Shown: positions 35,012 to 37,709 of the stretch, one piece after another
How positions within the stretch are numbered: position 1 is the first letter of the stretch
Layout of the letters: each line of letters starts with the position of its first letter
From: Sphingomonas sp. UBA4766
GTDB lineage: Bacteria; Pseudomonadota; Alphaproteobacteria; Sphingomonadales; Sphingomonadaceae
Assembly: GCA_002403415.1 (NCBI GenBank)
Contig: DHHS01000171.1
Span: forward strand, 1 to 42,823
DNA: 42,823 nucleotides
Reading direction: 5' to 3'
The notes under the pieces: generated by a model
Databases searched by the model: none
What the model was told of the DNA's origin: nothing
The model's input: only the letters and a program-made list of their open reading frames with translations
Translations under genes and position numbers: made by a program

Positions 35012-35102
35012 GCGCGCACCATGCCGATGCACGGGCCGAAGGGAAGCGGTTTGTATGTGCCTGTTGCTTGAGCCGGGCGCGATGATCGCGCATAGCCCGG
35101 CC

Positions 35103-35660
35103 ATGCGCCCGGTTTTCCTCCTGATCCTATCTGTGATGATCGCGGTCGGCGGCTGTTCAGCGGTGGCACCGCCTCCGCCCGCGCGCCCCCTGCCCGCGCC
35201 CGTGCGTCCGGCACTGCCGGTTGCGACGCCGATGCCGCTGCCCGTCAGCGCACCTGCGTCCGCCTATCGCGGCGATTGGCGCGACTGGCCGATGAGCGCC
35301 GGGCTGTGGGTGTATCGCCGCGACGCGCGCGGGTCGATCGCGTTGTTTGGCGCGGCGGGGCGTGACGCGACGGTAACACTGCGCTGCGACCAGGCGGGCA
35401 AGCGGCTGTATCTGTCGCGCCAGGGGAGCATAAGTTCGGCAATCACCCTGCGCACCTCCAGCACAGCGCGCACGCTCGCTCCGTTGCCGACGGGGGGCAC
35501 GCCGCCTTATGTCGCGATCGCGCTTTCGCCGGGCGATCCGCTGCTCGATGCGATCGGGCACAGCCGGGGTCGGTTTGTGATGGAACAACCCGGCACACCA
35601 CCTTTGGTCATTCCGGCACGACCGGAAATCTTGCGCGTGGTGGAGGATTGCCGGGGCTGA
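35103..35660 (+). CDS. Hypothetical lipoprotein with Pro-rich linker
   Basis: Signal with lipobox VGGC, Pro-rich tether, globular domain (DWRDWPMSAGLWVY...DPLLDAIGHSRGRF...EILRVVEDCR); TTGAGC-N17-CATAGC promoter 6 nt before the ATG. Confidence 0.8.
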   Translation: MRPVFLLILSVMIAVGGCSAVAPPPPARPLPAPVRPALPVATPMPLPVSAPASAYRGDWRDWPMSAGLWVYRRDARGSIALFGAAGRDATVTLRCDQAGKRLYLSRQGSISSAITLRTSSTARTLAPLPTGGTPPYVAIALSPGDPLLDAIGHSRGRFVMEQPGTPPLVIPARPEILRVVEDCRG

Positions 35661-35750
35661 TTGGGCAGAGCGCACCAAACGGAACACCATTCTTTGCCGC
35701 AGACCCCCTTCTTTGCTGAAAATGAATTTTAAAACAAGTCTTGTATCGAC

Positions 35751-35775
35751 GAATCACCTGATTCACTAAGGAGTC
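35751..35775. promoter_or_regulatory. Cluster of three GANTC (CcrM) sites, including the palindrome GAATCA-CC-TGATTC, in a putative promoter
   Basis: GAATC 35751, GATTC 35760 and GAGTC 35771; AT-rich tract and TTGTAT (35741) upstream; TAAGGA candidate -10. Confidence 0.55.
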
Positions 35776-35823
35776 GCGCTCAGGCAGAGCGTGCCGTTTC
35801 AACTAGCGAAAGGAGGTGATCCG

Positions 35824-35880
35824 ATGTCTCATGGTTCAGCAAGGGGGTCGGTTCAGTTCGTTCGGGGGACGCGCCGCTGA
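35824..35880 (+). CDS. Putative 18-aa small peptide MSHGSARGSVQFVRGTRR
   Basis: ATG 35824 to TGA 35880, preceded by GAAAGGAGGTGATCC (35808-35822); below the ORF-track size cutoff. Confidence 0.55.
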   Translation: MSHGSARGSVQFVRGTRR

Positions 35881-35989
35881 TCCGCCGGGCCTGGCGGGGG
35901 ATATTTCGCCCCAATCAACGCTAAGGCCCACAGGATTGGCGGTTCGCATGGTCTCCCGGGCTGGAGCATCCGGCCGCTGACCATGTCAG

Positions 35990-36034
35990 GAGGTTGCCGG
36001 GGAGGGGCGTGCGCTCCCCCCGGCAGCCTCTTTT
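35990..36034 (+). terminator. Intrinsic terminator closing the sORF/sRNA unit
   Basis: GAGGTTGCCGGGG...CCCCGGCAGCCTC 13-bp stem (one G-U) followed by TTTTCATTT. Confidence 0.85.
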
Positions 36035-36122
36035 CATTTGAAGCGTCGATGCACATGGCGCGGCTTGCCAGCGCGCCACGCGGCGCTAGGCTGAGCTCAA
36101 ACGACTGGCACAGGGGGATTTG

Positions 36123-37709
36123 ATGCGCGCTTTCATCTACGCCACGGTCATTGTCACCGCGATCATCGGCACCGCCACGGCGTCAGCCCAAACGACACCG
36201 CGCGTCGAGGAAGCGTCGATCACGGAGCTGCGCGCGATGATGGCCCGCGGGACGAGCAGCGCGGCGATCACCCGCGCCTATTTGGCCCGCATTGCCGCGA
36301 TGGATCGCACGGGGCCGACATTGCGATCCGTGATTGCAGTCAACCCCGACGCCATCGCCCAGGCGCAGGCGGCCGACGCCCGGCGCAAGGCCGGCATGTC
36401 GCTTGGCCCGCTCGACGGGATTCCGATCCTTATCAAGGATAATATCGAAACGCTCGATCCCGTGGCGACGACCGCGGGCAGCCTGGCGCTGAAGGACAAT
36501 GTCACCCGCCGCGATGCACCGGTGGTGGCGGAGCTGCGCCGGGCGGGTGCAGTCATCCTGGGCAAGACCAATTTGTCGGAATGGGCCAATATCCGCTCGA
36601 ACAATTCAATCAGCGGGTGGAGCGCGGTCGGCGGGCAGGTGCGCAATCCCTATGCGCTTGACCGGACCCCCTGCGGCTCGTCCAGCGGATCGGGGGCGGC
36701 GATTGCGGCGAGCTTTGCCGCCGCCGCGCTTGGTACCGAAACCGACGGTTCGGTGGTGTGCCCATCGTCGATCAACGGGCTGGTCGGGCTGAAACCGACG
36801 ATTGGCCTGGTCAGCCGCACCCATGTCGTGCCGATCAGCCATAGTCAGGATACGCCGGGTCCCATGGCGCGCAGCGTCATGGACACAGCGATCCTATTTT
36901 CGGCAATGATCGCGACTGACCCTGCCGACCCCGCGACAAAGGATGCAAGCGCGCATCGCGGTGATTACACGCGCACGCTCGCCACCGCGTCGCTCAAGGG
37001 GGTGCGGATCGCGGTGCTGCGACCGCGCATGGGTGATGGGCTGCGCACGTCCTATGAGGCGGCGCTTGACGTGCTTAAGGCGCAAGGAGCCGTGCTGGTC
37101 GAGGCAGAAGCGCCCAAGACCGACGGGCTGGGCGAGGCCGAGTTTGCGGTGTTGCTGAGTGAGTTGAAGGGCGATCTGAACGCCTATCTTGCCACCACGC
37201 CACCGGCGGTCAAAACCCGCACGCTCGCCGATGTCATTGCCTTTAACGAGGCGAACAAGGCCGCCGAAATGCCGTTTTTCGGGCAGGAGACCTTTATCGC
37301 GGCCGAGCGGACGCGCGGGCTGGACGATCCCGAATATCTCGGCGCGCGCGCCAAGTCCAAGCGCCTGGCTGGCGTCGAGGGGATCGACGCCTTGCTCGCC
37401 AAGGCGAATGCCTCGATCATCGTCGCGCCAAGCTATGGCCCCGGCTGGCTGATCGAGCCCGTTTACGGTGACCAATATCAGGGGCCATCGTCGAGCGAAT
37501 TGCCCGCCGTCTCAGGCTATCCAAACCTCACCGTGCCGATGGGGCTGGTAAAGGGCATGCCCGTCGGCTTGTCGTTCATCGGCACCGCTTTCGCCGAGCA
37601 AAAGCTGCTGGAGGCGGGGTATGTCTATGAACAGGCTAGCCGCAAGCGCGTGCCGCCGCGATATCTGCTCACCGCCGATGTCGGGCCAGGCATGGACGGG
37701 GCGCGCTGA
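36123..37709 (+). CDS. Amidase (amidase signature family), exported
   Basis: IKDNI catalytic Lys, GKTNLSEWAN, GSSSGSG, GTETDGS and GLKPT motifs; signal peptide; own TTGCCA-N16-TAGGCT promoter. Confidence 0.94.
   Translation: MRAFIYATVIVTAIIGTATASAQTTPRVEEASITELRAMMARGTSSAAITRAYLARIAAMDRTGPTLRSVIAVNPDAIAQAQAADARRKAGMSLGPLDGIPILIKDNIETLDPVATTAGSLALKDNVTRRDAPVVAELRRAGAVILGKTNLSEWANIRSNNSISGWSAVGGQVRNPYALDRTPCGSSSGSGAAIAASFAAAALGTETDGSVVCPSSINGLVGLKPTIGLVSRTHVVPISHSQDTPGPMARSVMDTAILFSAMIATDPADPATKDASAHRGDYTRTLATASLKGVRIAVLRPRMGDGLRTSYEAALDVLKAQGAVLVEAEAPKTDGLGEAEFAVLLSELKGDLNAYLATTPPAVKTRTLADVIAFNEANKAAEMPFFGQETFIAAERTRGLDDPEYLGARAKSKRLAGVEGIDALLAKANASIIVAPSYGPGWLIEPVYGDQYQGPSSSELPAVSGYPNLTVPMGLVKGMPVGLSFIGTAFAEQKLLEAGYVYEQASRKRVPPRYLLTADVGPGMDGAR

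What the first reader, a model, noticed from the sequence alone, without database searches (positions are those of the whole stretch)
35775..36035. Stand-alone structured RNA with a 15-nt perfect anti-16S-tail sequence and an 18-codon ORF
Seen: in a ~460-bp gap, GAAAGGAGGTGATCC (35808-35822) lies 1 nt before an ATG opening MSHGSARGSVQFVRGTRR* (35824-35880). The stop codon is buried in a 10-bp stem (35874-83/35933-42) with nested helices, followed by another stem-loop (35947-35985) and a strong terminator (35990-36034). The downstream amidase has its own promoter, so this looks like an independent unit rather than a leader. Established: the 15-mer is the exact complement of the 16S rRNA 3' tail (GGAUCACCUCCUUUC), far longer than a normal SD, and neighbouring genes have weak or no SD. 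Inference: a dual-function sRNA/micropeptide, a 30S-sequestering or ribosome-stalling RNA, or an atypical type I toxin-like mRNA. The peptide is basic, not hydrophobic, so it is not a classical membrane toxin. I recognise no family for it.
Basis: partly seen in the sequence, partly recalled or inferred. Interest (0 to 1): 0.85.

Follow-up and report, generated by a model that had tools for sequence, protein, structure and literature searches.

The report
Ribosome-docking mini-mRNA with two-state fold
This is a real, family-wide conserved mini-gene of a known but unexplained kind (rre/CC2171): its RNA matches 15 bases of the ribosome's own RNA tail, is predicted to flip between a fold that hides its start codon and one that locks its 18 codons in a rod, and likely matters as an RNA that docks ribosomes rather than for its peptide.

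Summary
Observation confirmed: the 15-mer (35808-35822) is the exact complement of the 16S tail read from genus relatives, unique in the genome, and precedes an 18-codon ORF. It is not a new family. It is the Sphingomonadaceae branch of the alphaproteobacterial rre mini-mRNAs (rreB/rreR, Hahn 2016, PMC5711450), which are homologous to Rfam CC2171; the window scores 27.8 bits, under the 75 cut-off. Earlier notes of this scan reported the same class on other DNA. It occurs in 35 of 36 genus and at least 142 of 156 family genomes. ORF length is kept with all three stops, but pN exceeds pS, so the peptide sequence looks unselected. What is kept is RNA structure: the ORF pairs with the pre-terminator strand as one rod, and a near-isoenergetic rival fold hides the start codon. 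Published Caulobacter data show ribosome footprints on the homolog in minimal but not rich medium. Best reading: a self-gating 30S-docking RNA that is unzipped and cleared by its own translation (inferred). Function remains unshown. New variant of a known kind; interest 0.45.

The parts
35064..35660 (+). Upstream neighbour, hypothetical protein without Pfam or NCBIfam match; syntenic but not shown to be functionally linked
   Evidence: no family; homolog upstream in 28 of 30 genus and 28 of 30 family loci
35741..35769 (+). Predicted sigma-70-type promoter: -35 TTGTAT (35741-46), 17 nt, -10 CACTAA (35764-69); inferred start near 35775-35777
   Evidence: motif TTG-N17-CA in 27 of 30 genus loci (26 at 36-43 nt before the SD), 0 of 30 control stretches; not called by the generic scanner
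35775..35793 (+). 5' hairpin, sequence variable but stem kept in relatives
35808..35823 (+). Extended Shine-Dalgarno: 15 Watson-Crick pairs plus one G-U pair with the 16S 3' tail, preceded by the conserved CAAC at 35800-35803
35824..35880 (+). 18-codon ORF MSHGSARGSVQFVRGTRR; length and Ser2 kept, peptide sequence not under detectable purifying selection
35821..35851 (+). Fold A (P0): CCGAU 35821-25 pairs with GUCGG 35847-51 and UCUC 35827-30 with 35843-46, hiding the start codon (predicted)
35830..35985 (+). Fold B (rod): 35830-35/35980-85 and 35837-40/35976-79 (P1), 35846-51/35970-75 (P2), 35856-73/35945-67, 35874-83/35933-42, with an apical insert 35887-35929; leaves SD and AUG free (predicted, covariation-supported)
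35946..35986 (+).
35988..36039 (+). Intrinsic-terminator-like hairpin (35988-36032) with U-rich tail
   Evidence: missed by the scanner
36123..37709 (+). Downstream amidase (PF01425, NF006006), not part of the unit
   Evidence: downstream in 7 of 30 genus loci

Best explanation
This is the Sphingomonadaceae form of the rre/CC2171 mini-mRNA, a predicted stand-alone transcript of about 260 bases that likely docks a 30S subunit through its 15-base match to the 16S tail and is likely gated by its own fold, the peptide being likely a by-product. Steps: (1) shown in sequence: 16S complement, 18-codon frame, conservation. (2) Predicted: the free RNA is split between fold A (start codon hidden by codons 7-10) and fold B (rod). 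(3) Inferred: the 16S tail pairs from the upstream GAAAGGAGG, displaces fold A, and the RNA settles in the rod, whose first helix starts at +7, inside the stretch an initiating ribosome must unwind; long SD plus rod hold the subunit in a slow, mostly unproductive state, as measured for rreB. (4) Inferred: when initiation does proceed, 18 codons of elongation unzip the rod, the 3' strand refolds locally (fold C) and the RNA is degraded, matching the start-codon-dependent decay of rreB. The RNA would thus act as a sensor or timer of initiation-competent ribosomes, its output being its own ribosome occupancy and lifetime.
For: Homology: rreB primer context CAAC-GAAAGGAGGTGATCC-AGTG-TCT-TAT equals the window's CAAC..GAAAGGAGGTGATCC-GATG-TCT-CAT; Rfam CC2171 hits Brevundimonas and Methylobacterium eSD loci above cut-off (91.1, 96.8), Bradyrhizobium rreB (41.7, beside a tRNA as in the paper), Dinoroseobacter rreR-type (40.0), Sphingomonas L071 (41.4); MSHC-type, GTG-start forms occur inside the window's own family. 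Translation kept, peptide not: 106 of 124 distinct family elements have 18 codons with TAA 69, TGA 40, TAG 15; pN/pS 0.324/0.248 in the family and 0.095/0.043 in 30 genus loci, third positions the least variable. Rod: across orders the +6..+17 strand pairs with its own pre-terminator strand at -8.7 against -4.3 kcal/mol for cross-class partners, own partner in the best 5% for 59 of 92; distal rod -29.1 own, -19.7 swapped, -18.8 shuffled. Fold A: base -1 covaries with an in-ORF copy of the 16S motif in 38 of 58 non-Sphingomonadaceae loci, permutation mean 19.8, maximum 32; L058/L059 change -1, +26 and the 3' partner together; 8 genomes lose one eSD base but keep CCG-AUG. Two states: -145.2 and -144.4 kcal/mol in the window; median gap -0.4 over 124 elements, free fold A in 63 and rod in 57; shuffling the leader gives rod probability above 0.9 in 58 of 60 trials against 0.33 native. 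Experiments on homologs: 30S co-sedimentation, weak translation, half-life 10 to 37 min on start-codon loss (PMC5711450); Caulobacter CCNA_R0051 ribosome profiling 0 RPKM in PYE, 2049 in M2G at similar RNA level (PMC4117421 supplement), same frame as the eSD ORF.
Against: No transcript, ribosome or probing data exist here for any Sphingomonadaceae copy. Fold A pairs are almost invariant inside the family (one compensatory event), and P1 was invariant partly because it was my anchor, so support comes from between-order comparisons among related sequences. The 3 RreB-type loci failed the P1 test (-2.3 own, -3.8 cross) and the 8 Rhodobacterales loci passed weakly. P2 is broken in 5 of 85 at one pair and 4 of 85 at another. 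Own distal partner beat all sampled swaps in only 60 of 106. The energy balance is not independent across homologs. Outside Sphingomonadaceae folds A and B could coexist as a pseudoknot instead of switching. The Caulobacter PYE zero is a single table entry and may be technical. No phenotype on 20-fold rreB overexpression (PMC5711450).
Confidence: 0.5

Rival explanations
1. The product is a small protein needed in tiny amounts; the long SD and the rod only throttle its synthesis (the reading of Hahn et al.).
For: Frame, Met-Ser start and length are conserved; RreB-EGFP fusion protein was detected (PMC5711450); Caulobacter homolog carries footprints.
Against: pN above pS, synonymous sites frozen; peptides of different orders share only Met-Ser; invariant codons are those in P0/P1/P2 helices and the most variable codon 7 sits in an unpaired loop; synthetic RreB and RreR were unstructured.
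Confidence: 0.15
2. A parking or protecting RNA: it caps the 16S 3' tail of a subset of idle or newly made 30S subunits, and the ORF is only the release key.
For: Match covers the whole single-stranded 16S tail; full-length rreB sits with 30S; single copy in most free-living Alphaproteobacteria (55 of 109 by exact pattern).
Against: Ribosomes far outnumber rreB and overexpression had no effect; the hibernation factor family PF02482 is present in 35 of 35 Sphingomonadaceae genomes tested, carriers included, so it is not a stand-in there.
Confidence: 0.2
3. A translation-gated trans-acting sRNA: ribosome passage frees the conserved 3' strand or a processed fragment to pair with target mRNAs.
For: The 3' strand CCGGCCGCUGACCAUG is near-invariant; stable 60- and 120-nt rreB fragments exist; CCNA_R0051 rises 4.4-fold, non-specifically, after mitomycin C (PMC6237742).
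Against: The invariance is explained by intramolecular pairing; the 3' strand differs between orders in step with the ORF; no target test was run.
Confidence: 0.1
4. A cis element of a neighbour: attenuator leader of the downstream gene or 3' element of the upstream gene.
For: Upstream gene syntenic in 56 of 60 loci; a class IV aminotransferase gene follows in many non-Sphingomonas family loci.
Against: Downstream gene varies within the genus (amidase 7 of 30); own promoter-like motif; the terminator forms in all folds computed; context is not conserved between orders (PMC5711450).
Confidence: 0.05

Closest known systems
rreB (Bradyrhizobiaceae), rreR (Rhodobacter/Roseobacter) and other rre mini-mRNAs; Hahn et al., RNA Biol 14:1353, PMC5711450
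   Same: Stand-alone layout, extended SD matching the 16S tail, one base to the start codon, Ser at codon 2 (TCT), short ORF (rreR also 18 codons), terminator.
   Different: 15 Watson-Crick pairs plus G-U instead of 16-17; ATG instead of GTG; about 260 nt with a 5' hairpin and apical insert against 165 nt; unrelated peptide; Sphingomonadales are not named in the main text or the supplement text (figures not seen). The paper predicts only an SD-hiding hairpin, not the long-range rod or two states.
Rfam RF01867 CC2171 (Caulobacter CCNA_R0051 / CCNA_03965)
   Same: Same 5' consensus through GAAAGGAGGUGAUCC-N-RUGUCUCAU, same helix from codon 3 to the strand before the terminator, terminator; its ORF is the eSD frame.
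   Different: Window scores 27.8 bits against a cut-off of 75; P1 is CAUGGU/ACCAUG instead of CAUUGUC/GACAAUG; Rfam lists it as an sRNA without ORF or function.
Extended SD-aSD initiation in Staphylococcus aureus (PMC13009471)
   Same: Start-proximal extension of the SD helix.
   Different: There two extra pairs on ordinary mRNAs aid start selection; here the match runs to one base from the start codon on a single dedicated RNA.

Membership tests
rre class (Hahn 2016) | At least 16 nt complementary to the 16S 3' end | tested here: inconclusive
   15 Watson-Crick pairs plus one G-U = 16 only if wobble counts
rre class (Hahn 2016) | Small ORF starting directly behind the complementary region | tested here: met
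   18 codons, 1-nt spacer, same register as rreB
rre class (Hahn 2016) | GTG start whose G is part of the 16S match (the paper allows ATG in Azospirillum) | tested here: not met
   ATG in the window and 30 of 30 genus loci; GTG forms exist elsewhere in the family
rre class (Hahn 2016) | Stand-alone transcript with own promoter and terminator | tested here: inconclusive
   motifs conserved; read data uninformative
rre class (Hahn 2016) | 30S binding, weak translation, start-codon-dependent decay | not testable with these tools
   shown for rreB only
rreB or rreR orthologous peptide families | Peptide similarity to RreB (MSYLKRCHLAGIAR type) or RreR type | tested here: not met
   only Met-Ser shared with L180 and L167
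Rfam RF01867 CC2171 | Score at or above the gathering cut-off of 75 bits | tested here: not met
   27.8 bits, E 0.0027; named Sphingomonadaceae homologs 41.4 and 47.8
Rfam RF01867 CC2171 | 5' consensus, codon-3-to-pre-terminator helix and terminator | tested here: met
Type I toxin mRNA | Hydrophobic or conserved toxic peptide with a cognate antisense RNA | tested here: not met
   peptide not hydrophobic, pN above pS; antisense RNA itself not searched for

The most novel reading that the evidence does not exclude
rreB, rreR, CC2171 and this element are one ancient, class-wide riboregulator whose ligand is the 30S subunit itself: the 16S tail flips it from a start-hiding fold to a rod, nutrient state decides whether the docked subunit is released into translation (as the 0 versus 2049 RPKM footprints in Caulobacter hint), and the RNA thereby reports or controls initiation capacity or 16S 3'-end quality in thousands of Alphaproteobacteria, with a peptide that does not matter.
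Probability: 0.25. Interest if true: 0.85.

Novelty: new variant of a known kind. Interest (0 to 1): 0.45.

Why it matters
The rre class has had no function since 2016, yet the pattern stands in about half of the Alphaproteobacteria sampled and an estimated 7100 stored genome stretches. The Sphingomonadaceae branch gives what the original work lacked: over 120 variants of fixed length that separate RNA structure from peptide, natural compensatory mutants, and an explicit three-state model that can be tested by probing, toeprinting and compensatory mutagenesis. The link to CC2171 also brings existing Caulobacter transcript and ribosome-profiling data to bear. As a discovery of a new family it is ordinary.

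Tried and rejected
Antisense rRNA fragment or assembly artefact: rejected, the match stops after 15-16 nt and is followed by a start codon, whereas rRNA loci continue differently. Chance: rejected (reversed-pattern controls 0). Long SD simply implying a short ORF: in 64 viral stretches with the same pattern only 21 ORFs were 30 codons or shorter and 10 had TCN at codon 2, against 28 and 30 of 30 alphaproteobacterial loci. Expression evidence: 24 runs listed, 4 laid; all were contigs, the one recorded RNA run covered the region flatly at depth 2-4 like DNA, and the one run covering only this element began upstream of the predicted start, so nothing is concluded. Hibernation-factor replacement (lead from e1-9285214): PF02482 in 35 of 35 genomes, 16 known carriers and 19 lacking the exact pattern, 8 of which later proved to carry a variant. 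Plasmid search gave one 29-nt match in Azospirillum. Upstream protein: no Pfam, NCBIfam or exact cluster. Other families of the order: 0 of 94 by exact pattern, and no convincing CC2171 hit in 14 tested. Alignment A2 held one row on the wrong strand and was not used for counts. Literature searches for a Sphingomonadales report or a later rre study found none; the library lacks most subscription papers, including Landt 2008, which I did not see.

Full report
Observation. The sequence is as described: a 15-mer at 35808-35822, one G, ATG at 35824, 18 codons, TGA at 35878-35880, within the gap between a hypothetical gene ending at 35660 and an amidase starting at 36123. The window's own assembly holds no 16S gene with this tail, so I read it from 7 rRNA loci of 4 genus relatives: the 15-mer is its exact complement and G35823 adds a G-U pair. 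It is the only such match in the genome (next best 12 nt) and its duplex (-28.8 kcal/mol) lies beyond all 2579 long ORFs (minimum -19.6). The region folds far better than shuffles (z -6.55). The generic scanner found neither promoter nor terminator on the plus strand, but a TTG-N17-CA motif stands in 27 of 30 genus loci and 0 of 30 control stretches, and a 5' hairpin of variable sequence follows it; that this is a sigma-70 promoter is inference from recalled alphaproteobacterial promoter shape.

Conservation. BLAST finds it in 35 of 36 other genus genomes and 0 of 24 genomes of other families. All 30 loci fetched (the window included) have the 15-mer, G, ATG and 18 codons, ending in TAA 15, TGA 10, TAG 5. 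The exact pattern is single-copy in 121 of 156 family genomes and 0 of 94 from other families of the order; looser searches of the 35 misses recovered 13 and 8 more, giving at least 142 of 156. In a phylum draw it is in 55 of 109 other genomes of the class and 0 of 191 of other classes. A scan of named genomes estimates about 7100 stretches; of the 120 returned, nearly all are Alphaproteobacteria, 113 have an ORF of at most 30 codons and 106 of those have a TCN serine second. Named homologs with the window's peptide type are Sphingomonas and other Sphingomonadaceae. The upstream gene is syntenic in 56 of 60 loci, the amidase follows in 7 of 30 genus loci.

What it is. Hahn et al. [quoted passage not shown] Their primer shows the same start context as the window. 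Rfam CC2171 hits the window weakly (27.8 bits, cut-off 75). Of 15 loci I scanned, 12 hit CC2171: Brevundimonas and Methylobacterium above cut-off, rreB- and rreR-type and Sphingomonadaceae loci at 40-48 bits. CC2171-like MSHC forms, some with GTG, occur inside the window's family and as second copies in two genus genomes. Schrader 2014 (PMC4117421; passages and two supplement files seen) lists the CC2171 RNA as CCNA_R0051, 'translated CCNA_03965', with footprints of 0 RPKM in PYE and 2049 in M2G at RNA levels of 1334 and 1696. In 4 of 6 loci matching the published probe, an 87-nt CTG frame like theirs is the eSD frame, 18 nt upstream of the GTG. So CC2171 is the Caulobacter rre gene. Other papers seen as passages only: 10.1101/2022.01.24.477521 (CC2171 Northern in Methylorubrum), PMC11701678, PMC6237742, PMC5988900; PMC13009471 outline and part of one section. 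bioRxiv supplements were closed and could hold Sphingomonadaceae sRNA lists. Earlier notes of this scan filed the same class on other genomes; none lay on look-alike DNA.

RNA, not peptide. Among 124 distinct MSHG-type elements (those with a recognisable 3' anchor and ORF up to 22 codons), 106 have 18 codons and all three stops are used, but pN exceeds pS (0.324/0.248 family; 0.095/0.043 genus) and third positions vary least. Codons 3-6 and 8-10 are frozen where they pair; codon 7, in a loop, takes nine residues. Kin are not independent, so these are descriptions, not tests of significance.

Structure. Three folds are predicted for the window. A (-145.2): CCGAU across the start codon pairs with GUCGG of codons 8-10. 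B (-144.4; -139.1 with the eSD held single): the ORF from +7 to the stop pairs with the strand before the terminator as one rod. B is supported by swap tests between orders (own -8.7, cross-class -4.3; 59 of 92 loci with a callable terminator, 21 of 113 dropped; RreB-type failed, Rhodobacterales weak), by the distal rod inside the family (own -29.1, swapped -19.7, shuffled -18.8; best in 60 of 106), and by the same helix in the Rfam model. A is supported by covariation of base -1 with an in-ORF 16S-like motif in other orders (motif in 58 of 82, shuffled mean 21.5; Watson-Crick match 38 of 58, permuted mean 19.8, maximum 32), by one triple change in L058/L059, and by 8 genomes that drop an eSD base yet keep CCG-AUG. 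A and B are within 3 kcal/mol in 76 of 124 elements, and the native leader is what destabilises B. All of this is computation; a pseudoknot is an alternative outside this family.

Mechanism and verdict. I commit, at about 0.5, to a self-gating 30S-docking RNA: 16S pairing opens fold A, the rod at +7 and the over-long SD slow initiation, and translation unzips and clears the RNA, making it a sensor or timer of initiation-competent ribosomes. Rivals are a parking or protecting role (0.2; hibernation factor is present in 35 of 35 genomes), a functional peptide (0.15), a gated trans-acting sRNA (0.1) and a cis element (0.05). It works like rreB and is homologous to it, but fails the Rfam cut-off, the GTG feature and, strictly, the 16-nt feature, so I file it as a new variant of a known kind. 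Interest 0.45: the family is known and repeatedly met in this scan, but its function is open and this branch makes it testable.

Noticed in passing
L142 (genome contigs), 3' part of the element: This rre homolog carries a perfect copy of the 16S tail (GGATCACCTCC) in its own 3' half; L162 and Rhodobacterales-type loci carry CACCTCC-like anti-SD words there too.
   Followed up: no
L133, L173 (Azospirillum), L104, L171: The same extended SD, in Azospirillum even the MSHG start, opens 48-60-codon ORFs that look like signal-peptide proteins rather than a short rod RNA; the Azospirillum 'rre' of the paper may be a different thing.
   Followed up: no
L108, L127, L161, L086 (Burkholderiales labels), L077, L106, L150: eSD plus short ORF plus terminator outside Alphaproteobacteria; three share an MRD..G start. 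L077, L106, L150 hit CC2171 weakly.
   Followed up: partly
L231 (G018:C1:804900-805500), L232 (G030:C1:681100-681700): Second, MSHC-type rre copies with a degenerate eSD in two genomes of the window's genus.
   Followed up: partly
L285, L303, L311, L294/L299 (viral contigs): Viral contigs with the extended SD before 11-13-codon ORFs followed by structured RNA; L285/L303 have a downstream TCACCTC anti-SD word.
   Followed up: no
L031-L060 downstream: In many non-Sphingomonas family loci the next gene is a class IV aminotransferase (PF01063 for L039), likely the branched-chain one (recalled label).
   Followed up: partly
window 35064-35660: Family-wide conserved hypothetical protein with a signal-peptide-like start and Pro-rich linker, no Pfam or NCBIfam match, fixed upstream of the RNA gene.
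   Followed up: partly
L351: A Caulobacteraceae copy has a palindromic insertion of about 85 nt right at the stop codon, inside the rod's apex.
   Followed up: no
G034:C1: The element lies about 9 kb from an rRNA gene in this one genome; not seen in the three other complete genomes checked.
   Followed up: no
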